Below are positions 1,768 to 20,473 of a stretch of 64,000 bases of DNA, in pieces. Numbering within the stretch: the stretch's first letter is position 1; every line of letters starts with the position of its first letter. The position numbers and the translations under genes are program-made. The stretch is from a virus. The notes below the pieces were generated by a model. It worked only from the letters and a program-made list of their open reading frames with translations, did no database searches and was not told the origin of the DNA. The stretch is from IMG/VR virus record IMGVR_UViG_3300025928_000005, positions 47,342-111,341 of that record; one strand, 5' to 3'.

Positions 1768-3573
1768 TCACGTGTAGGGGGTGGTGTTGGTCTTCTGCAG
1801 GCCGGCGAGGTGTGCCGAGTACTGCGGCGCGTGCGCCACCATGGCCCCGTACAGGAAGATGCTGTAGCGGAAGGTGGCGTCGATCACCGGCCACGCGATG
1901 GACACGTAGTCCTGGACCGTGGTCATCTCCCACGCGTTGGCGACGTTCGTCCACGTCTGGGGGAGCTGGTAGGTCATCAGGTCGGCGTTGCCCTGCTTGT
2001 ACCAGGGGTGCACGACCATCTTCATGATCGACCGGGTGAACGGGTTGCGGAACTCGTCGACGGCGGCGCCGGTCTGGATGCCGCCGGTCTCCGACTGTTG
2101 GATGAACAGCCGGTAGTTGGTGGCGGAGCCCTGGGCGATGACGTCGTCGGACAGGTTCGCGATGTCGGTCGCGGAGCTGAGCAGCTCCGCCGGGTCGGCC
2201 TTGAACGCGCCCGGGTTGTTGGACGAGCTGTCCCACAGCGCCTTCAGCGTGGTGTTGATGACGTTGTAATTCAGCGTGGTGCCGACCGCGTTGTTGACGT
2301 AGCCGCCCTGCCAGCCGGACGGGTAGATGCCGGCGGTGGCCGACACGCCCGCCAGGGTCGGGATGACTCCCTCCATGCGGGTGCCCTTGCCGGTGCCGGT
2401 GTCGGCGGCCGGCACGGCGCCGGTCGTCGCGGCGGTGCCCTGCAAGGTGAAGCGGGTGCCGCCGACCTGCGCCTGCTGCAGGAAGTAGCCGGCGCTGGCG
2501 TTGTTGGTGTAGATGTTGGTGAACAGGGCGCCCGCGACGGTCGGGATGGTGACGTCTACGACCTGGCCGGCGCCGACGGTGACGCTGTTGCTGGCGACGG
2601 ACGGGGCGGTCTCACCCCAGTAGTTGCCGGCGGTGACCTCGACGGTCAGGGTGCCCGTGGTGAACGCGGTCTCGTTGGAGCCGGCGGTGCGCAGGGTCAG
2701 GGTCGGCGCGGCCGGGACGGCCAGGTTGACCGACGTGCCGGCGATCATCTGGTACTCCTCGCCGAGCATCATCTCCTGCAGGAGGATGAGGTTGGCGAGC
2801 GCGGAGACGTCCTCGAAGCCCTGGCCGCTGAACTGGGCGAGCCAGGACAGCTGCTCGGTGATGCCGAAGAACCGGTAGGGCACGTTGAGCGTGACCTCGG
2901 TCTGGCTACCCGAGGGCGGCAGGTTCAGCGGCCAGGAGCTGAACGAGCCACCGGAGGTGACGAGCTCGTCAATGGAGATGTCGAGCACGCCCTGCCCGCC
3001 GGTCTGCGAGCCGCTGATGCCGGTGAACACGCGCTCGATCCGGCTGAGGCCCTGGCCCGCCGGGCGCGGGAACTTGTTGCGGTACAGGGTGTAGACCGGG
3101 TAGATCAGCCGCGACGGGGCGAGCAGGTCGAACGGCACGAGGCCGTAGATCGAGCCGATGCCCAGGTTGCCGGCGGTGAACGACTTGTCGGCGCCGGGGA
3201 TGCCCTGCAGGAGCTGGCCGATCTGCTCGCCGATGGACGGCTGGGTCAGGGCGGTCTTCAGGTTGCCGAACTGGTTGAGGAAGCCCTGGTTCATGGACTT
3301 CACGACCGACTGGCGGTTCGTGTAGCCCTGCATGGTGGCGGTGCGCAGGTCCAGGGCGGCCTGGTGGGCGCGGTAGGTGATGTCGGCCTGGTCCTCCAGC
3401 GGCTTGTTGGAGCCGATGGTGGCGAGGCCGGCGCCCTTCACCAGGTTGGGCAGCTGGGCCTTGATGGCGTCGCCGGTGGTGTTGCAGCGGGACACGGACT
3501 CCTGCAGGCCCGCCTTGAGCTCGCTCATGTCGGCGGGGGTCTGGGTGTCGGCGCCCTCGAGGAGTGCAGCCAC
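1768..3573 (-). CDS. major capsid protein with probable inserted beta-rich domain
   Basis: 601 aa after protease/scaffold; FDLLAPSRLIYP..T.YRNKFPR motif; synteny portal-protease-capsid. Confidence 0.75.
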   Translation of the reverse strand: MAALLEGADTQTPADMSELKAGLQESVSRCNTTGDAIKAQLPNLVKGAGLATIGSNKPLEDQADITYRAHQAALDLRTATMQGYTNRQSVVKSMNQGFLNQFGNLKTALTQPSIGEQIGQLLQGIPGADKSFTAGNLGIGSIYGLVPFDLLAPSRLIYPVYTLYRNKFPRPAGQGLSRIERVFTGISGSQTGGQGVLDISIDELVTSGGSFSSWPLNLPPSGSQTEVTLNVPYRFFGITEQLSWLAQFSGQGFEDVSALANLILLQEMMLGEEYQMIAGTSVNLAVPAAPTLTLRTAGSNETAFTTGTLTVEVTAGNYWGETAPSVASNSVTVGAGQVVDVTIPTVAGALFTNIYTNNASAGYFLQQAQVGGTRFTLQGTAATTGAVPAADTGTGKGTRMEGVIPTLAGVSATAGIYPSGWQGGYVNNAVGTTLNYNVINTTLKALWDSSSNNPGAFKADPAELLSSATDIANLSDDVIAQGSATNYRLFIQQSETGGIQTGAAVDEFRNPFTRSIMKMVVHPWYKQGNADLMTYQLPQTWTNVANAWEMTTVQDYVSIAWPVIDATFRYSIFLYGAMVAHAPQYSAHLAGLQKTNTTPYT

Positions 3574-3606: not shown

Positions 3607-6555
3607 TTACTTGGTGAAGCCGGTCATCTTCTTGAGCTCCCGCCACGCAACTTCCCGCTGCATCGGGTCGGGGTTGTTCCGCCACTGCTCGTGCAGGGCC
3701 TGGAACACGGACTCCTGAGCGCGCTCCACGCGACTCACGGACGGCAGCACCTCCGGTGCGGCCGCGCTCTTGGTCAGCTGGTCGAAGGCGACGCCGCGGT
3801 AGGGACCCGCCGGGTCCGGCTGCGCGGCGAGCTCCTCGACCTGCTTGCGCATCTTCTTGATGGTCTTCTTGAGGTCGGTGACCTCGGTGAGGTGGGCGGC
3901 GGTCGCGTCGGCGACCGCCTTGTTGATGAGGCTCTGCACGACGTCCACGTCGAGCGTCGCCGCCTTCACGACCTCGGCCGAGGTCTCCTTGCCGTAGGTC
4001 GTCTCGAGCGTCTCGGTGACGGTCGGCGGCTCGACGGTCTTGGCCTTCTTGGCCTTCTTCGCGGCCTTGGCCGCGCCGGGGCCGTGCGGGGCTGGCATGC
4101 CGACGCCGGTGGGCACCGGGCGGGAGCCGGGCAGGCCGCCGTTGCCGTACGGGCTGCCGTCGGGCGCGGCCGGGCACAGGTCGGGGAAGGTCTGCGCGAT
4201 GTGGTCGTGCATGGCCAGCATGGCCTGCCGGGCGTTGTCGCGCATGGCGTTGGTGTAGTAGGTCCGGGTGGGGACGCCGGTGACGGACGGGGCGCTGACC
4301 GGCCGCATCGGCTCGCCGGAGCTGGACGGGGCCTCCGCCGCGTGGCCGCCGGTGAGGTAGCCGCGGCCGTACTGGCTCGCGCTGATGGACCCGAACGGGT
4401 CGGGCGCGGTGTTGGGACCCGCGTGGCCCGGGGAGGCCGCCTCGTGGCCGGCGGTGATGACCGGCCGGTTGTAGGAGCGGCCGTTGATCGAGCCGGGGGT
4501 CGGGAACGTGCCCGGGCCGGGGTTCGCGTCCCGGAACTCCTTGTAGAGGTCCGACCGCGCCTCGAGCAGGTAGCGCGGGTCGGTGCCCTTCAGGAGGGTC
4601 ACGTGCTGCCACAGCTCGTTGGCCTTGCGGGCCTGGTCGAGCGGGGCGGACGCGGCGAGCTCGAAGGCCTTGCGCTGCCAGTGGTTCGGGTCGAGGCTGG
4701 ACAGGTCGTAGCGCGGGTAGCTCTTCGCGACGTCGTCCGGGTGGAAGCACGGGCAGGTCAGGTCGTGGAGCGTGCCGTAGTCCACGGGCACGTTCAGCAT
4801 CTTGAGCCGCATCGCGGCGGACCCCTCGGGGTCATCCGGGAAGATGAGGTCGGCGGCCTTCACGGACGAGTCCGGGACGGTGGGAACCTTGGCGTCGCGC
4901 TCGAACGCCTCGATCACGGGGCCGTCGGGCTCGCGGTGCTCCGGCACCGGGTCGGCGTCCTCGGTCTCCTCGACGCCGTCGGTGGGCGTGGGCTTCTTGA
5001 CCACGTCGGCCTTGGCCGCGGCCTTGCGCGCCTTCCTCGCGGCCTTGGCCGCGGCCTCCTGGAGGTCGGCCTCGCTCACGCTGGAGCCCTGAACCTGAAC
5101 CTCGACGGTCTTGACCTTGGAATCCGCCTCCGGCAGGTAGCCGGGGTGGGCCTTGCCGCAGCTGGGGCAGTACTTCTCACCCTTGTCGAGCTGGTAGCCG
5201 CAGCCGAGGCACGTGAAGTCGTGGTTCTTCTTGATTGCGAGCGCGCCCTTGAGCTTGCCGCCGCACTCGGGGCAGAAGTTGTGCTCGGCGTGCAGGTTCG
5301 CCCCGCAGCCGGGGCACATGACCTTGTCCTTCTTCTCGACGGTGACGACCTTCTCGATGGTCGGCTCGGCGGCCTTCATGCCGTCGTCGCACTTGTCGTC
5401 CTCGTCGCCGTCCGCGTCGGCCTTGTCGGTCGCGCCGCTCGAGCCGCCGCCGGCCGTGCCGCCACCAGCGGCCCCACCGCCGGCGCTGCCGCCGCTCTCG
5501 CCGCTGCCGCCGCCGGTGGAGCCGGCCTTGACCTCGTCCGGCTCCTCGGTCTTCGCCTCGGCGTCGCTCTCGGTCTCGACGTCGACCGTCTTCTCCTCGG
5601 CGTCCTCAACCACCTCGACGTCGACGACCTTCTCGCTGTCGCCCATGCCCAGCTCCTTCTTCCAGCTCTCGGGGAGCCGGGCCACGAAGGCGGCACCCTT
5701 GCGCCGTGCGATGCGGATGATGCTGCTCTTCAGCCCCTCCGGGGACTTGTTGTCGGCCCCGGCCCGTCCGATCGACAGCGCGGCGTCGTGAACATCCTGT
5801 GGCGTGACGATGGGGAAGGAGCGATCGTTGCCGGCGAAGTCCTCGGCGGGGATCTTGTCGCGGTCGGTGCCGCCGCCGACGTTGGGGTCCACCTTGCGCT
5901 TGGCGACCCCCTCGTGGCCGGTGAGCGCCTTGGCCACGTCGGCCGGCGTGACCCGGTCGGCGGCGAGGGCGGCGCCGGCTGCCTTCACGATCTCTCCCGC
6001 GAGCGCGTCGTCGAGGATCAGCTGGCCCACGTCCTCGGGCTGACCCGAATCGCCGGCGGCCTTGACGAGCTGGAACTTCGAGTTGAAGTTGCTGCCGCGG
6101 TCGACCAGCGAGATCTCGCTGATCTTGGTGAGGCCGTCACGGCGACCGCGGATGATGCCGTTCATGGCCTTGCCGGTCGGGTCCGGCACGATGTCCGGGT
6201 GGGTGATGCCAACCGAGTAGCAGGTGAGGACGCCCTTGCGGACGAGCTCCTTCGCCACGGGCTCCACGACGAGGGACTTGACCCAGTGGCCGTCGGGCGT
6301 GGCCTCCACCTCGAGGCCCTTGCCGGCGGGATCGCGGCGGGCCTGGTGCTGCACCCGCAGGTTGCCGCCGGTGTCGAGCCACTCGTGGATGGCCTTGGCT
6401 GACCAGTCCTGGTCGACGATCTGGAGGTCGGAGTCGACGGTGCCGTCGGTGGCCTTGCCGTAGACGATGAGGTCGCCGTCGCTCGTCTCCTCGGTCTTCT
6501 CGATGGGGAACGAGAAGTAGGTCAGCTCGCCGTCGGGGGTGAGGGTCGCGGCCAC
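3607..6555 (-). CDS. prohead protease/scaffold with double zinc ribbon
   Basis: N-terminal HK97-like protease (VYGKATDGTVDSD, QH, YSVG, EISLVDR); four CxxCG knuckles; C-terminal coiled coil. Confidence 0.8.
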   Translation of the reverse strand: MAATLTPDGELTYFSFPIEKTEETSDGDLIVYGKATDGTVDSDLQIVDQDWSAKAIHEWLDTGGNLRVQHQARRDPAGKGLEVEATPDGHWVKSLVVEPVAKELVRKGVLTCYSVGITHPDIVPDPTGKAMNGIIRGRRDGLTKISEISLVDRGSNFNSKFQLVKAAGDSGQPEDVGQLILDDALAGEIVKAAGAALAADRVTPADVAKALTGHEGVAKRKVDPNVGGGTDRDKIPAEDFAGNDRSFPIVTPQDVHDAALSIGRAGADNKSPEGLKSSIIRIARRKGAAFVARLPESWKKELGMGDSEKVVDVEVVEDAEEKTVDVETESDAEAKTEEPDEVKAGSTGGGSGESGGSAGGGAAGGGTAGGGSSGATDKADADGDEDDKCDDGMKAAEPTIEKVVTVEKKDKVMCPGCGANLHAEHNFCPECGGKLKGALAIKKNHDFTCLGCGYQLDKGEKYCPSCGKAHPGYLPEADSKVKTVEVQVQGSSVSEADLQEAAAKAARKARKAAAKADVVKKPTPTDGVEETEDADPVPEHREPDGPVIEAFERDAKVPTVPDSSVKAADLIFPDDPEGSAAMRLKMLNVPVDYGTLHDLTCPCFHPDDVAKSYPRYDLSSLDPNHWQRKAFELAASAPLDQARKANELWQHVTLLKGTDPRYLLEARSDLYKEFRDANPGPGTFPTPGSINGRSYNRPVITAGHEAASPGHAGPNTAPDPFGSISASQYGRGYLTGGHAAEAPSSSGEPMRPVSAPSVTGVPTRTYYTNAMRDNARQAMLAMHDHIAQTFPDLCPAAPDGSPYGNGGLPGSRPVPTGVGMPAPHGPGAAKAAKKAKKAKTVEPPTVTETLETTYGKETSAEVVKAATLDVDVVQSLINKAVADATAAHLTEVTDLKKTIKKMRKQVEELAAQPDPAGPYRGVAFDQLTKSAAAPEVLPSVSRVERAQESVFQALHEQWRNNPDPMQREVAWRELKKMTGFTK

Positions 6556-17210: not shown

Positions 17211-18917
17211 TCAGCTCTCCCACGGCCAGCGCCCCGCCTGGCCGGCCTCGAGGGTCAACGGCAGCCCGAACATGGCGTCGGTCAGGCCGCCAAGCTCGTG
17301 ACGGTTGCTGCCCGGCGTGACCGGCATCATCGTGTTCTTGTAGCCGGCGAGGTTGAACGCGTAGATCGGCACGTTCCGCGGGGCAGCCGAGTCGACGTCA
17401 CCCACCCCGTAGTTTCCCATCGTCTGACAGTCGGTCAGGATGATGACGCGGCTGTGCTCAGGCCGCAGCGTCTCGCGGACCGCCCTCGCGATCTCGGTGC
17501 CGCCGCCGGCGCTCCCCTGGTATCGCTTGAACGTTTCCACCGCCTTGAGCAGGCTCGTGCCTGGCTCGACACCGGTGACGTGGAACTGCGTGTTCGCGAA
17601 GCCCCACGCGTCGACGCCGGCCGGGTTCCGGATCTTCAGGGCGAGCCCGAAGAGCGCGGCCGCGGTCGAGTAGTCCATCTTGGAGTTTTCGGACAGCTTG
17701 CCCCAGGTCATCGACGCGGAGGTGTCGATGAGCACGAGGGTCCGGCCCGGCAGTACGGGCACGTTCGCCAGGGAGTGGTTCACGGCCTGCTCCAGGGCGT
17801 GGCCCCACCGCAGGGACGGGGCCTCGAGGTAGGCGTTGAGGAACCGGAACGGCAGCTGACGGCTCTTCCGGATCTGCTCCGGGTCGGCGAGCCGCGTCAG
17901 GAGCGGTCCGATCACCGAGTCCGGGACGCCGGCCTGGTCGAGGCCGCGCAGGTTGCGCAGCAGGGCCATGTAGCCGAGCTTGGGCAGCGCGAGCTGCCAG
18001 ATCTCGGCGTCGGTGACGGCGCGGCCCTCGCTCGGCTTCTCGCCGAGCCACGACTTGAGCCACTCCCACTGGCCGACCATCGCCCCGTGGATCAGGTCGA
18101 GGGCGACCTGGTCGTCCGCGAGGGCGCGGCGCGCGAGGTCGTGCCGCTCGCTGGGGGTCAGGCGCGCCATCGCCCACCGGACCCGGACGTGGGTCAGGGA
18201 CTCGGGCGGCTCCGCCCCGTCGCGGCCGTGCCGGGCGGTGATCGCCCACCGGAACAGGTCGTCCTGCCAGGTGCGCTCCGCGCCGGGGGTGCGGACGTCG
18301 GCGTGGGTCAGCTCGAGGACGTCGCCGAACCGCAGGGCCTTGCCCTCACCGTCGTAGCGCAGGAACGCGGCCTCGTCGTAGAGGCGCGTGACGGCGTCGG
18401 CGACGCCGCGCTTGACCGGCTTCGGCAGCTTGACGACGATCGTGCCGTCGGGGCGGGTGACGCCGAACCGGTGCCGCCAGTAGGCGAGGAGCTCGCCCGG
18501 CTCATCGGGGCGCTGCAGCACCGACGTGACCAGCTCGCGGTTGCCGTCACCGTGCAGGCCGGCGGTGAGCCGGGCGTGCACGGCCTCCGCGGCGAGCAGG
18601 ATCGACGCGGTGCGGATGTTGCCCGGGCCGCGCAGCCACGAGAGGAAGACCCGCACCCACGGCCACGTCTCCTCGTTGACGGCGAGCTGGGCCACGAGCT
18701 CCCGCAGGCGCTGCACGTTCTCGTCCGCGGTGTCGTAGAAGCCCCTCTCACCAGCGAACCGCGAGACCGCCCGCCTGAAGAGCTCGGACTGCGCGTCGCT
18801 CTGGAAGCCGGGCGCGCCCTCGTGGGTGAGCCCGTCCGGGGTCGCGCTGAGCGTCCGCAGCGGGCCGCTCGCGGCCGCGCGCCGCGGTTGGGTCGATGCC
18901 TTGTTGAATCCTGCCAC
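17211..18917 (-). CDS. rsr: Ro60/Rsr TROVE-domain RNA-binding protein with vWA domain
   Basis: THEGAPG, LQRPDEPGELLAY, LPKPVKRGVADA, YMALLRNLR, SRQLPFRF, MIDAS DTSASM, GGGT, ILTD; GTG with GAGAGG RBS. Confidence 0.93.
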   Translation of the reverse strand: MAGFNKASTQPRRAAASGPLRTLSATPDGLTHEGAPGFQSDAQSELFRRAVSRFAGERGFYDTADENVQRLRELVAQLAVNEETWPWVRVFLSWLRGPGNIRTASILLAAEAVHARLTAGLHGDGNRELVTSVLQRPDEPGELLAYWRHRFGVTRPDGTIVVKLPKPVKRGVADAVTRLYDEAAFLRYDGEGKALRFGDVLELTHADVRTPGAERTWQDDLFRWAITARHGRDGAEPPESLTHVRVRWAMARLTPSERHDLARRALADDQVALDLIHGAMVGQWEWLKSWLGEKPSEGRAVTDAEIWQLALPKLGYMALLRNLRGLDQAGVPDSVIGPLLTRLADPEQIRKSRQLPFRFLNAYLEAPSLRWGHALEQAVNHSLANVPVLPGRTLVLIDTSASMTWGKLSENSKMDYSTAAALFGLALKIRNPAGVDAWGFANTQFHVTGVEPGTSLLKAVETFKRYQGSAGGGTEIARAVRETLRPEHSRVIILTDCQTMGNYGVGDVDSAAPRNVPIYAFNLAGYKNTMMPVTPGSNRHELGGLTDAMFGLPLTLEAGQAGRWPWES

Positions 18918-18946
18918 GTTCCGGGTTCCTCTCAGCTTGAACGAGA

Positions 18947-18986
18947 ACGAGGCCCCCACCAGCCGTTAAGCTGGTGGGGGCCTCGT
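18947..18986 (-). terminator. 17-bp perfect hairpin between RNA array and rsr
   Basis: ACGAGGCCCCCACCAGC / GCTGGTGGGGGCCTCGT. Confidence 0.6.
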
Positions 18987-19028
18987 GGTGGACGGTCTCA
19001 ACCGCCTGCCTTGTCGGTTGAGACCGAG

Positions 19029-19102
19029 TTGCGGGGACGGGATTTGAACCCGTGACCACTGGGTTATGAGCCCAGCGCGCTACCGAACTGCGCCACCCCG
19101 CT
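19029..19102 (-). tRNA. tRNA-Met(CAU), initiator-like
   Basis: cloverleaf; anticodon arm GGG-CUCAUAA-CCC (3 G-C pairs); 1:72 mismatch; no CCA. Confidence 0.93.
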
Positions 19103-19105
19103 GCA

Positions 19106-19206
19106 CGTGAGCTGGACCGGGACGAGACCTGAGGTGACGGGCGGCGTCTGTTTGCAACCAATTTGCGAAGTAGCCGCTCGTCCGCGCACCGTCCCGGCCG
19201 CTCACG
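19106..19206 (-). ncRNA. Y-RNA-like RNA A (minimal insert)
   Basis: terminal stem, GGUGCG, inner stem, CUACUUC, short hairpin, GGUCUC; scaffold shared with four others; next to Ro60. Confidence 0.7.
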
Positions 19207-19209
19207 AGA

Positions 19210-19290
19210 TCACCACGAGACCTGGGACGACCTGGGGCGACTCTTCAAATTAGCAGTTTGATATAGCCCCTGGTCTTTGCACCGTGGCGA
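19210..19290 (-). ncRNA. Y-RNA-like RNA B (anticodon-stem-loop-like insert)
   Basis: GGUGCA..CUAUAUC..GGUCUC scaffold; insert UCAAA-CUGCUAA-UUUGA. Confidence 0.7.
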
Positions 19291-19310
19291 AGCCTGTGTG
19301 TAGTTGTGGG

Positions 19311-19455
19311 TCGACGCGAGACCAGGTGGCTGGCGGCGTGATCCTCGAAATGCTGCCGATTACACCACGTCCCCGAGGGGACGGCGGGATTCGAACCCGC
19401 ACCTCAACCTAATCAGGGTTGTGTGAAGTAGTCGCTGGCCGTCGCACCGCGTCGA
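19311..19455 (-). ncRNA. yrlA: YrlA-type Y RNA C with permuted tRNA-like domain
   Basis: scaffold plus T arm GCGGG-UUCGAAU-CCCGC, loop-closed acceptor CGUCCCC-UC-GGGGACG, D-like arm. Confidence 0.82.
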
Positions 19456-19462
19456 TGAAGTT

Positions 19463-19548
19463 GTGGGAACCGACTGACCTGGGTTGCCCCGGCCCATAGG
19501 CTATGACCGCCGCGTCTGGTCTCACGCTCGGTTCTAGACGTGAGCCAC
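19463..19548 (-). ncRNA. putative structured RNA with pseudoknot
   Basis: CUCACG/CGUGAG hairpin whose loop GAACCGA complements downstream UCGGUUC; closing GUGG/CCAC. Confidence 0.4.
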
Positions 19549-19555
19549 GTTGCAT

Positions 19556-19686
19556 CACCTCGAGACCTGAGCGTCGGTCGGGGTAGCCGCTTGGCCGCTG
19601 CGGCGAACGACCGGGGTTGAGACCGGTCGATGGGATTCGAACCCATGATTCTTGTGGAAGTACCCGCTCGACTTCGCACCGAGGTG
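19556..19686 (-). ncRNA. yrlA: YrlA-type Y RNA D with permuted tRNA-like domain
   Basis: scaffold plus T arm AUGGG-UUCGAAU-CCCAU, loop-closed acceptor CGACCGG/CCGGUCG, D-like arm. Confidence 0.82.
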
Positions 19687-19693
19687 CCTTGCG

Positions 19694-19768
19694 TGGCTGC
19701 CGATGGACTTGAACCACCGACCCCCGCCTTATCAGGGCGGTGCTCTAACCTGTCTGAGCTAGACAGCC
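19694..19768 (-). tRNA. tRNA-Ile(GAU)
   Basis: GGCUGUC/GGCAGCC acceptor; CCGCC-CUGAUAA-GGCGG; T loop UUCAAGU. Confidence 0.93.
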
Positions 19769-19772
19769 GTAC

Positions 19773-19870
19773 GGTGAGATCCTACCACCGGGAGGGAGTC
19801 GAACCCGCTAGGTTGGTCGCGACACCAACCCGTCGTCCGGACGCGGAGTTGAACCGAGCCGGATCTCACC
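19773..19870 (-). ncRNA. unknown RNA with two T-loop hairpins
   Basis: 10-bp closing stem GGUGAGAUCC/GGAUCUCACC; CGG-UUCAACU-CCG and GGG-UUCGACU-CCC; central GGUUGGU/ACCAACC hairpin. Confidence 0.6.
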
Positions 19871-19894
19871 TGAGCGACCTCGCGTAGTCGCCTG

Positions 19895-19966
19895 CGCCGG
19901 AGACGGGGATCGAACCCGCGACCTCTCCCTCGACAGGGGAGCGCTCTTCCATTGAGCTACTCTGGC
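19895..19966 (-). tRNA. tRNA-Asp(GUC)
   Basis: CUCCC-CUGUCGA-GGGAG; G73; A4:C69 mismatch. Confidence 0.88.
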
Positions 19967-19968
19967 TT

Positions 19969-20043
19969 ACGTGGTCCTCTGGCCGCTGAGGTACACCCCC
20001 TCGAAGTGGAGGTGAGGGGACTCGAACCCCCGACTTCCCACCG
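19969..20043 (-). ncRNA. free-standing circularly permuted tRNA-like element without anticodon loop
   Basis: order T arm, acceptor 3' strand CACCUCC, 7-nt linker, GGGGGUG, UA, D arm CCUC/GAGG. Confidence 0.7.
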
Positions 20044-20117
20044 TGACTGCCGCTGGACTCGAACCAGCTACCTTCCGAGTTTCAACCGGACGCTCTCCCA
20101 GCTTGAGCTAGGCAGCC
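20044..20117 (-). tRNA. tRNA-Phe(GAA)
   Basis: GGCUGCC/GGCAGUC acceptor; UCCGG-UUGAAAC-UCGGA. Confidence 0.88.
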
Positions 20118-20238
20118 AAGCACACGGTGAACCATCGCCGATCCATCAGCATCGAACGCGATGTTCGATGCTTTTACCACGGACCAGGGACTCGAGTACT
20201 GCCCGTGGTGGGCTGACACCCGTGCGTGCCTTCCCTTG

Positions 20239-20310
20239 TACCCCACGCCGGGATCGAACCGGCGCCTTCCGCTTGAGGGGCGGAGGTGACTACCACTACA
20301 CCAGTGGGGC
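20239..20310 (-). tRNA. tRNA-Glu(CUC), atypical C33
   Basis: GCCCCAC/GUGGGGU acceptor; UCCGC-CCCUCAA-GCGGA; T loop UUCGAUC. Confidence 0.8.
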
Positions 20311-20312
20311 GT

Positions 20313-20473
20313 GAAACCTCACCGAGACCATTGAGCCTGCCCTCGGTTTTCTTTCTGACTCTTGCTCTGCCAAGTTGAGCTACCCCACGACCGAGGTCGA
20401 GGGGACGGGACTTGAACCCGCAACCCAGAGTTCCGCTTGAAGTATCCGAGTGCGTTCGCACCGGTGAGGCTTC
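20313..20473 (-). ncRNA. yrlA: YrlA-type Y RNA E with permuted tRNA-like domain
   Basis: scaffold plus ACUCU/AGAGU stem, T arm GCGGG-UUCAAGU-CCCGU, loop-closed acceptor, D arm UAGCUCAACUUGGCAGAGC. Confidence 0.85.

What the first reader, a model, noticed from the sequence alone, without database searches (positions are those of the whole stretch)
19773..19870. Unknown ~98-nt RNA with two T-loops
Seen: a perfect 10-bp closing stem encloses two T-arm-like hairpins (UUCAACU, UUCGACU) and a 7-bp hairpin; no D arm or acceptor end. Known: paired T-loops form tRNA-elbow-binding platforms in T-box RNA, RNase P and the L1 stalk. Inference: a novel elbow mimic or tRNA-binding RNA.
Basis: partly seen in the sequence, partly recalled or inferred. 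Interest (0 to 1): 0.75.

Follow-up and report, generated by a model that had tools for sequence, protein, structure and literature searches.

The report
Phage RNA with two tRNA T-arms
A soil phage carries a conserved RNA gene of about 120 bases between two tRNA genes, just upstream of its Ro60 (Rsr) gene. The RNA contains two tRNA-type T-arm hairpins, each followed by a small hairpin with GG in its loop, and fits no catalogued RNA family. It is most likely a mimic of the tRNA elbow, but only three versions are known and expression is unproven.

Summary
On the minus strand at 19773-19870, a perfect 10-bp stem encloses two hairpins with textbook tRNA T-loops (UUCAACU, UUCGACU) and a 7-bp hairpin. 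ARAGORN and Rfam assign nothing to it.

It lies in a minus-strand array of 5 tRNAs and at least 5 Y-like RNAs upstream of a phage rsr/TROVE gene. I found homologs only in two other lineages of the same uncultured soil-phage clade. In all three it follows tRNA-Asp and ends 4 nt before the next tRNA.

Comparing the three versions changes the anatomy:
- The conserved T stems are only 3 bp.
- Each T-arm is followed directly by a mini-hairpin with a GG loop (YGGAY, YGGU).
- An upstream 7-bp hairpin (19873-19892) belongs to the unit. Its loop and the central hairpin loop are complementary, and both switch together (CGCG versus GUAC).

Stems show compensatory changes while loops stay fixed.

The T-loops are tRNA-type (U at position 2). 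They are not the G-type loops of the T-box/RNase P/L1 tRNA-docking module, and the array's Y-RNA signature is absent.

My best reading is a tRNA-derived RNA without a Ro handle that displays elbow-like T-loop/GG-loop surfaces and acts as a decoy or recruiter. Function and expression are unproven. This scan had already noted the same stretch on this same genome.

The parts
19873..19892 (-). P0: 7-bp hairpin with loop ACGCGA, starting 1-2 nt after tRNA-Asp. Proposed 5' part of the RNA.
   Evidence: RNAfold. Present in all three orthologs with compensatory changes at 6 of 7 stem positions. Its loop is complementary to the P3 loop.
19861..19870 (-). P1 5' strand (GGUGAGAUCC) of the closing stem.
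   Evidence: Exact complement of 19773-19782. The orthologs have longer closing stems (about 20 bp with an internal loop or bulges) of different sequence.
19857..19860 (-). J1: 4 unpaired nt (GGCU) between P1 and T1.
   Evidence: Common model. It is 3-4 nt in the orthologs.
19844..19856 (-). T1: 3-bp stem plus tRNA-type T-loop UUCAACU.
   Evidence: The third pair is C-G / A-U / G-C in the three orthologs.
19831..19843 (-). mD1: 4-bp hairpin CGUC/GACG with loop CGGAC (YGGAY in the family), directly abutting T1.
   Evidence: Found by RNAalifold. 100% paired, with two positions changed on both sides. The loop GG is invariant.
19811..19830 (-). P3: central 7-bp hairpin with loop GUCGCG.
   Evidence: The orthologs have 4-6 bp stems of unrelated sequence. 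The loop is complementary to the P0 loop over 5 nt.
19807..19810 (-). J2: unpaired UAGC between P3 and T2.
   Evidence: Common model.
19794..19806 (-). T2: GGG-UUCGACU-CCC, the second tRNA-type T-arm.
   Evidence: The stem is invariant in the family. The fourth 'pair' is a mismatch in all three orthologs (read).
19783..19793 (-). mD2: UCC-CGGU-GGU mini-hairpin plus A. This is the invariant word CCYGGUGGUA.
   Evidence: It forms 3 bp in the orthologs and 2 bp plus a U-U mismatch in the window. With T2 it resembles a tRNA 3' half.
19773..19782 (-). P1 3' strand (GGAUCUCACC). The next tRNA starts 4 nt downstream.
   Evidence: The same 4-nt spacing occurs in both orthologs, although the next tRNA differs.
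19894..19966 (-). tRNA-Asp(GUC), the constant upstream partner of the element.
   Evidence: ARAGORN and Rfam. tRNA-Asp precedes the element in L006 and L004 as well.
19693..19768 (-). tRNA-Ile(GAU), the downstream neighbour. Its RNase P site would define the element's 3' end.
   Evidence: The processing step is inferred.
17211..18959 (-). rsr (Ro60/TROVE) gene downstream of the RNA array. It gives the genomic context.
   Evidence: Pfam TROVE, E 4.5e-13. Relatives at 66-92% identity carry the same arrays.

Best explanation
This is a genuine small RNA gene of about 120-126 nt in this phage and 145-148 nt in its relatives. It fills the whole gap between tRNA-Asp and the next tRNA in a co-transcribed tRNA/Y-RNA array.

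Inferred processing: ordinary tRNA processing releases it. RNase Z or trimming after tRNA-Asp would make its 5' end, and RNase P at the next tRNA, 4 nt downstream, would make its 3' end.

Inferred origin: it appears to have arisen from duplicated tRNA 3' halves.

Shown by comparison: it folds into a closing stem that carries two modules. Each module is a 3-bp T-arm with a canonical U54-U55-C56-R57-A58 loop, followed directly by a mini-hairpin with an invariant GG in its loop. A central hairpin separates the modules, and its loop matches the loop of a 5' flanking hairpin.

Inferred mechanism: the GG loops act as D-loop G18/G19 does in tRNA and cap the T-loops. The RNA would then present one or two tRNA-elbow-like surfaces without an anticodon, an acceptor end or a Ro60-binding handle. 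It would act as a mimic, either decoy or recruiter, for factors that read the T-arm or elbow of tRNA. Candidates are TruB and other T-loop modifiers, RNase P, RNase Z, the CCA-adding enzyme, or host nucleases aimed at tRNA. It would work alongside the phage's Rsr/Y-RNA and end-healing genes.
For: Real and conserved:
- Three diverged orthologs in phages whose Rsr proteins are 74-75% identical.
- My covariance model scores them 78-92 bits. The next best hit in 187 kb of rsr loci scores 20 bits. There is one copy per genome.

Structure under selection:
- 86.9% of cells are paired against 74.5% in shuffles (1 of 500 reach it).
- The covariation score is 0.397 against 0.192 (2 of 500), and at most 0.148 when partners are slid.
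- By module, compensatory changes occur in P0, P1, T1, mD1 and P3, while the loops are invariant.
- G-U pairs occur only when the sequence is read on the minus strand.
- The P0 and P3 loops are complementary over 5-6 nt in each phage and change together.

tRNA-type loops with GG partners. Elbow anatomy comes from PMC4810234.

tRNA origin: T2 plus its tail aligns with the 3' halves of the array's own tRNAs.

Context: tRNA-like Y RNAs and a tRNA mimic without a Ro handle lie in the same array, next to rsr and a PNK-type phosphatase. [quoted passage not shown]

No promoter-like or terminator-like site splits the array on the transcribed strand.
Against: - Only three distinct sequences exist, all from one clade of uncultured phages, so statistical power is low.
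- T2, mD2 and all loops are invariant, so the T-loop/GG-loop contacts cannot be tested by covariation.
- The T stems are only 3 bp, and mD2 loses a pair in the window's own copy.
- The common fold is 5-7 kcal/mol above the nearest-neighbour MFE in each sequence, and the window's copy has an unremarkable z-score.
- With zero-nucleotide linkers, each T-arm may stack coaxially on its own mini-hairpin, so any loop contact would have to be between modules. No 3D test was possible.
- Expression is not shown. Contigs from four rhizosphere RNA libraries cover neighbouring RNAs of the array but not this element.
- No partner protein is known.
Confidence: 0.4

Rival explanations
1. Processing or insulator element. 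The structured spacer exists to keep neighbouring tRNAs folding independently and to position RNase Z, RNase P or RNase E cuts in the long precursor. The T-arm shapes are left over from its tRNA origin and have no function of their own.
For: The element fills the inter-tRNA gap exactly, starting 1-2 nt after tRNA-Asp and ending a constant 4 nt before the next tRNA in all three phages. It travels as a cassette with tRNA-Asp while the other tRNAs are shuffled. Extra T-arm minihelices next to tRNAs are common in viral contigs.
Against: An insulator would not need the full T-loop consensus, two invariant GG loops, or a pair of loops that change together, while the stems drift. The other tRNA junctions in these arrays carry different RNAs in the same position.
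Confidence: 0.2
2. Atypical Y RNA. The long closing stem binds the phage Rsr protein, and the two-T-arm head is its effector module. The layout would resemble Deinococcus Yrn1: stem, D-like region, stem-loop, T-arm.
For: It lies within about 900 nt of rsr, among Y RNAs. The L006 ortholog gives a full-length but weak match to RF01053 (20.2 bits; E 0.13 across all families, 0.016 per genome). The orthologs have stems of about 20 bp with an internal loop or bulges. The 3' strand word GAUCUC resembles the array's GGUCUC motif.
Against: The three-part signature of the array's Y RNAs (GGUGC, UAYWUC, GGUCUC) is absent. UAYWUC occurs only in the 4-5 Y RNAs of each array. The window's copy has only a perfect 10-bp stem with nowhere to place a Ro-binding bulge. 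RF01053 does not hit the window or L004 copies and is far below its 80-bit gathering score. There is no YrlA hit either.
Confidence: 0.15
3. Non-functional debris. Two decayed tRNA 3' halves left by duplication or recombination in the array are carried along passively.
For: T2 plus its tail looks like a tRNA 3' half, and T1 and T2 resemble each other. The family is confined to one small clade. There is no expression evidence.
Against: Phages at about 75% Rsr identity have replaced most stem nucleotides yet kept pairing, with compensatory changes. Meanwhile 7-nt and 4-5-nt loops remain identical. The P0 and P3 loops switch in concert. Two of three copies score z -3.9.
Confidence: 0.1
4. tRNA-binding platform. 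The two T-loops interdigitate as in T-box Stem I, RNase P or the L1 stalk and dock the elbow of a tRNA.
For: Two T-loop motifs lie in one compact RNA next to tRNA genes.
Against: The defining G at position 2 of both T-loops (AG..A and UG..A) is absent, because both loops read UUCRA (one search compared). The topology differs: the loops cap separate hairpins with two other hairpins between them. The conserved GG loops suggest the T-loop gaps are filled as in tRNA.
Confidence: 0.05

Closest known systems
YrlA (Y RNA-like A; Rfam RF02553; Chen et al. 2014, PMC4201824)
   Same: It is encoded next to rsr/Ro60 and occurs in phages. It contains a tRNA-type T-arm followed directly by another hairpin. 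It is tRNA mimicry without decoding. YrlA-like RNAs lie in the same array.
   Different: It has no Ro60-binding stem motif and no D arm. It has two T-arms instead of one. The hairpin after each T-arm is 3-4 bp with a GG loop rather than a 6-7-bp acceptor-like stem. No RF02553 match was found on the element.
Deinococcus radiodurans Yrn1 (Rfam RF01053)
   Same: The order of parts is the same: a closing stem, then a 5' region containing GG words, a central stem-loop, and a 3' T-arm. One ortholog gives a weak full-length match.
   Different: The score of 20 bits is far below the 80-bit cut-off, and two of three orthologs give no match. The 5' region here is itself a T-arm plus hairpin. There is no evidence of Rsr binding.
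Head-to-tail (interdigitated) double T-loop module of T-box Stem I, RNase P J11/12-J12/13 and the L1 stalk (Lehmann et al. 2013, PMC3664808)
   Same: Two T-loop motifs occur in one small RNA domain, with a link to tRNA biology.
   Different: The T-loops here are UUCRA, not (A/U)G..A. They cap two separate hairpins rather than a bulge and an apical loop of one stem. GG-bearing loops are present that could fill the T-loop gaps as in tRNA.
Viral tRNA-like structures, e.g. TYMV TLS (as reviewed in PMC4810234)
   Same: A virus-encoded RNA reproduces the D-loop/T-loop elbow with an unorthodox topology elsewhere.
   Different: Those elements are cis-acting 3' UTR parts with an acceptor end that can be aminoacylated. 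This is a free-standing gene in a tRNA array without an acceptor end.
Stable RNAs of unknown function in the phage T4 tRNA cluster (species 1 and 2, rnaC/rnaD). This comparison rests on my own knowledge and was not checked here.
   Same: They are small structured RNAs co-transcribed with phage tRNAs and released by tRNA processing enzymes, with function still unknown.
   Different: There is no sequence or structural relationship. The T4 RNAs are not associated with rsr.

Membership tests
tRNA | Cloverleaf with a 7-bp acceptor stem and a free 3' end, detected by tRNA finders | tested here: not met
   ARAGORN and Rfam RF00005 find the five flanking tRNAs but nothing at 19773-19870.
tRNA | D arm and a 7-nt anticodon loop | tested here: not met
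   There is no D arm. The central hairpin loops are 6-9 nt long and share no pattern.
tRNA | T-loop consensus G53-U54-U55-C56-R57-A58-C61 | tested here: met
   Both loops in all three orthologs match it. Only 3 stem pairs are conserved.
YrlA (RF02553) | Covariance-model match at or near the gathering score | tested here: not met
   No RF02553 hit on the element at E<=10 in the window. In L006 there is only a 19.5-bit partial hit that runs into the next tRNA.
YrlA (RF02553) | Ro60-binding stem with the conserved 5' motif (GNCGAA-type). In this array the signature is GGUGC ... UAYWUC ... GGUCUC. | tested here: not met
   UAYWUC occurs only in the Y RNAs of each array. The element lacks the three-part signature.
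YrlA (RF02553) | T-arm, acceptor-like stem-loop, then D arm | tested here: not met
   The T-arm is followed by a 4-bp GG-loop hairpin. The D-arm position is taken by a second T-arm.
YrlA (RF02553) | Encoded next to rsr | tested here: met
   The TROVE gene lies at 17211-18959, about 0.8 kb downstream on the same strand.
Deinococcus Y RNA (RF01053) | Covariance-model match over the 80-bit gathering score | tested here: not met
   20.2 bits for the L006 ortholog only. Nothing was found in G000 or G002.
[quoted passage not shown] | Conserved G at position 2 of both T-loops (AG..A and UG..A), forming the two base triples | tested here: not met
   Both loops read U-U-C-R-A. The definition comes from PMC3664808.
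[quoted passage not shown] | Mutual filling of each T-loop's gap by the other loop in 3D | not testable with these tools
   This needs a structure or a mutate-and-probe experiment.
tRNA-elbow mimic (functional class) | T-loop capped by a GG-bearing loop (a G18/G19 equivalent) | tested here: inconclusive
   Two invariant GG loops exist next to the two T-loops. Because all of these residues are invariant, no covariation test is possible.
tRNA-elbow mimic (functional class) | Recognition by T-arm or elbow enzymes (pseudouridine 55, RNase P, CCA addition) | not testable with these tools
   This needs biochemistry.

The most novel reading that the evidence does not exclude
This is a new class of viral tRNA mimic. 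It is a compact 'double-elbow' RNA in which two T-loop/GG-loop pairs form two G19:C56-like stacking faces. It may assemble through the co-varying palindromic P0/P3 loops, either within one molecule or as a symmetric dimer. The phage would use it to occupy or redirect a host factor that reads tRNA elbows, such as RNase P, a T-arm modifier or an anti-phage tRNA nuclease. It would act independently of Ro60.
Probability: 0.2. Interest if true: 0.8.

Novelty: new variant of a known kind. Interest (0 to 1): 0.5.

Why it matters
The role of the tRNA-like domains of bacterial and phage Y RNAs has been unknown since they were described in 2014. This array offers that mimicry in separated forms: Y RNAs with a Ro handle, a tRNA-like module without one, and this RNA. 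This RNA keeps only T-arms plus GG loops and doubles them.

If it is stable and binds specific proteins, it is a minimal, easily synthesised probe for which host or phage factors these mimics are aimed at. It would also show that a T-loop can be capped by a 4-5-nt hairpin loop instead of a D arm, which bears on how little RNA suffices to build a tRNA elbow.

If it proves to be only a processing spacer, it still documents a conserved cassette, tRNA-Asp plus structured RNA, that moves as a unit within shuffled phage tRNA arrays.

Tried and rejected
Searches for more homologs, all without new family members:
- GenBank phages by blastn gave only tRNA hits.
- IMG/VR scans with the T2-tail word and the two-T-arm pattern returned only the same three contigs.
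- A looser two-T-arm pattern gave more than 118 unrelated places.
- A pattern scan of GTDB genomes gave 17 unrelated hits.
- Rsr-guided loci from metagenomes at 40-52% identity carry Y RNAs and tRNAs but not this element.

Expression: contigs from four rhizosphere RNA libraries match the array at 19243-19679, 19868-20034 and 20032-20187, but none covers 19773-19867. One contig stops at 19868, at the element's 5' edge. Contig data cannot show absence, so I draw no conclusion from this.

Structural ideas dropped:
- 5- to 7-bp T stems. They form only in the window's copy and compete with mD1.
- Pairing between J1 and J2. It is not conserved.
- The mD1 loop pairing with the top of P1 (UCCG:CGGA, GUCC:GGAC). 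It is weak in L004.
- A CCAC/GUGG hairpin after T2. It competes with T2 and is broken in the window.
- T-box-like UGGN pairing with tRNA NCCA ends. The window's loops read CGGA and CGGU, which would mismatch A76.

Other ideas dropped:
- attP or integration relic. There is no tyrosine integrase in the complete 111-kb genome.
- L055, a pseudo-tRNA plus a T-arm with a CGGU hairpin, as a distant homolog. Its layout is different, so I treat it as a coincidence or an independent case.

MAFFT alignments of the variable-length P3 hairpin were unreliable (helix 4). I therefore compared P3, P0 and P1 module by module in a script.

Full report
**Where it lies**

The window is part of a 111,341-base IMG/VR virus record that CheckV rates as complete.

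The finding lies on the minus strand, inside a dense run of RNA genes:
- tRNA-Glu, tRNA-Phe, tRNA-Asp, tRNA-Ile and tRNA-Met (ARAGORN; Rfam).
- Sub-threshold YrlA-like matches at 20337-20452, 19973-20038 and 19350-19401.

The run ends at a TROVE/Ro60 (rsr) gene at 17211-18959, followed by a PNK-type phosphatase gene. No promoter-like or terminator-like site interrupts the array on the transcribed strand.

The closest cellular Rsr proteins belong to Streptosporangiales-type actinobacteria at about 47-50% identity. Runs that hold the DNA are mostly rhizosphere and soil metagenomes. The host is therefore probably a soil actinobacterium, but that is an inference.

**The observation**

The description is correct. 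A perfect 10-bp stem (19861-19870 with 19773-19782) encloses:
- CGG-UUCAACU-CCG
- a 7-bp hairpin
- GGG-UUCGACU-CCC

Both loops carry every conserved T-loop residue. Nothing in Rfam matches this strand here even at E<=10, and ARAGORN calls no tRNA.

The T-arm word GGTTCRANTCC occurs 9 times in the window against 0.22 expected. All nine are in this array, and two are in this element.

Thermodynamic stability alone is not striking for this copy (z -1.75).

**Relatives**

Using the Rsr protein as a guide, I found related arrays in five IMG/VR contigs and fifteen metagenome contigs.

The element is present in two further lineages, both with Rsr about 75% identical to the window's:
- L006:4115-4234
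- L004:3871-3987, which is identical in L003, L133 and L144

Two other close contigs end before the relevant position.

Arrays around more distant Rsr genes (40-52% identity) lack the element. A covariance model built from the three sequences (R1) scores them 78-92 bits, and nothing else in 187 kb scores above 20 bits. Each phage genome has one copy.

Pattern scans of IMG/VR, GTDB genomes and a blastn search of GenBank phages added no members.

The family therefore stands on three distinct sequences.

**Synteny**

In all three phages the element directly follows tRNA-Asp and ends exactly 4 nt before the next tRNA. That next tRNA is Ile, Phe or Glu respectively. tRNA-Asp and the element thus move as a cassette within arrays that are otherwise shuffled.

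**Revised anatomy**

RNAalifold, a module-by-module comparison and a pair count on a model-fitted alignment give one common fold.

1. P1 is the closing stem. It is 10 bp here. In the relatives it is about 20 bp with an internal loop or bulges, and its sequence differs.
2. T1 keeps only three conserved pairs. The third is C-G, A-U or G-C.
3. mD1 directly abuts T1. It is a 4-bp hairpin (CGUC/GACG, UGGC/GCCG or CUCC/GGAG) with loop YGGAY.
4. P3 is a central hairpin of 4-7 bp with unrelated sequences in the three phages.
5. T2 is an invariant GGG-UUCRAYU-CCC. The fourth 'pair' is a mismatch in all three.
6. mD2 directly abuts T2. It is NCC-YGGU-GGU followed by A, that is, the invariant word CCYGGUGGUA.

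The longer T stems that the window's copy can form are not conserved, and they compete with mD1.

On the fitted alignment, 86.9% of cells pair against 74.5% in shuffles (1 of 500). The covariation score is 0.397 against 0.192 (2 of 500), and at most 0.148 when partners are slid by 1-3 columns. That count understates P3, whose variable length is misaligned.

The common fold lies 5-7 kcal/mol above each MFE. This is expected if T-loop tertiary contacts, which the energy model ignores, matter. It is also a caveat.

The relatives fold far better than shuffles, with z -3.9 each.

**An upstream hairpin belongs to the unit**

Between tRNA-Asp and P1, every ortholog has a 7-bp hairpin, P0 (19873-19892 here). 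Six of its seven pairs show compensatory changes.

Its loop and the P3 loop are complementary over 5-6 nt in each phage:
- CGCGA with UCGCG in the window
- GUACGA with UCGUAC in L006
- CGUACG with CGUACG in L004

Mixed pairs from different phages match over only 2-3 nt when the window's loops are paired with either relative's. Each match has a chance probability of 0.002-0.02.

The cores are palindromes. The same data therefore fit three readings: an intramolecular kissing loop, a symmetric dimer, or two sites for one partner. The co-ordinated switch from CGCG to GUAC does tie the two loops together.

Simple length bookkeeping favours an intramolecular kiss in the two relatives, where P1 is about as long as P0 plus the kiss plus P3. 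It is less comfortable for the window's short P1. This geometric argument is inference only.

**What it is not**

It is not a tRNA. It has no acceptor end, D arm or anticodon loop.

It is not a YrlA or an array-type Y RNA. The three-part signature GGUGC, UAYWUC, GGUCUC marks the 4-5 Y RNAs of each array and is missing here, and RF02553 does not match.

One ortholog gives a weak full-length match to the Deinococcus Y RNA model (20.2 bits). The order of parts is similar: stem, a 5' GG-rich region, a stem-loop, then a 3' T-arm. However, the other two copies do not match, and the score is a quarter of the family cut-off. I keep this as a lead about ancestry, not as membership.

It is not the tRNA-docking double T-loop module. 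That module is defined by G at position 2 of both T-loops (PMC3664808), whereas both loops here read UUCRA.

It is unlikely to be an integration relic, because the complete genome has no tyrosine integrase.

**Most likely mechanism**

In tRNA, C56 pairs with G19. G18 intercalates between positions 57 and 58 and contacts pseudouridine 55. The exposed G19:C56 face is what RNase P, T-boxes, the ribosome and many proteins read (PMC4810234).

This RNA has two loops with exactly those T-loop residues and two invariant GG loops, in a 2:2 ratio, while the surrounding stems drift. The simplest reading is that the GG loops cap the T-loops, giving one or two elbow-like surfaces.

Each T-arm abuts its own mini-hairpin with no linker, so the contacts may be between modules (T1 with mD2, T2 with mD1). 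I cannot test that here.

T2 with its tail aligns with the 3' halves of the array's own tRNAs, and T1 resembles T2. This points to an origin by duplication of a tRNA 3' half.

[quoted passage not shown] By analogy, this RNA would engage proteins that bind the T-arm or elbow, as a decoy or a recruiter, without being tied to Rsr.

What is shown:
- conservation
- the helices
- the loop identities
- the synteny

What is inferred:
- processing at the flanking tRNA sites
- the loop-loop contacts
- the elbow mimicry
- any partner

**Expression**

Contigs assembled from four rhizosphere RNA libraries match neighbouring parts of the array with 0-4 differences: 19243-19679, 19868-20034 and 20032-20187. 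None covers 19773-19867.

Such contigs cannot show absence, and DNA can contaminate RNA libraries. Expression of this element is therefore simply unknown.

**Verdict**

It is a new structural variant within the known theme of tRNA-mimicking RNAs at rsr loci. Good comparative support comes from only three sequences, and there is no functional evidence. An earlier first-stage note of this scan flagged the same stretch of this same genome.

Noticed in passing
window 20118-20237 (-); L004:4064-4178; L006:3649-3865: A second unassigned structured spacer always follows tRNA-Glu in the three phages. The copies share the word AGUACUCGAGUYCCUG and have no Rfam match. One RNA-library contig (20032-20187) matches it exactly.
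   Followed up: no
window 19028-20473 (-); L004:3600-4880; L006:3330-4935: The arrays look assembled from cassettes: tRNA-Asp with the two-T-arm RNA, and tRNA-Glu with the unknown spacer. The order of the tRNAs differs between phages, while the four Y RNAs nearest rsr keep their order.
   Followed up: partly
IMG/VR loci L015-L132, e.g. L060, L068, L087, L088: More than 118 viral contigs hold two T-arm words only 25-55 nt apart. In many, a normal tRNA is followed by an extra T-arm minihelix of about 35-45 nt. This suggests that free T-arm modules are common in phage tRNA arrays.
   Followed up: no
L055, reverse strand 2902-3016: A GC-rich viral contig has a pseudo-tRNA that ARAGORN calls 'tRNA-???', with a 4-nt anticodon loop. 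It is followed by a T-arm abutting a UCCC-CGGU-GGGA hairpin. This is the only other T-arm plus GG-loop hairpin module found in 3.6 Mb of fetched loci.
   Followed up: partly
L142:3600-3715; L145:3595-3700: Distant rsr arrays carry another unassigned element: an 8-12-bp closing stem, internal hairpins, the shared words CAUGG and UGGUGAWAUCC, and a single 3' T-arm.
   Followed up: no
window 19243-19679: Contigs from three rhizosphere metatranscriptome libraries (373-386 nt, 0-4 differences) span two adjacent Y RNAs of this phage. This is a hint that the array is transcribed in the field, but DNA carry-over is not excluded.
   Followed up: no
L006:4124-4127 and 4222-4225: The long closing stem of the L006 ortholog has a symmetric 4x4 internal loop, GACA opposite GACA, which could form tandem sheared G-A pairs. 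It is absent from the window's copy.
   Followed up: no
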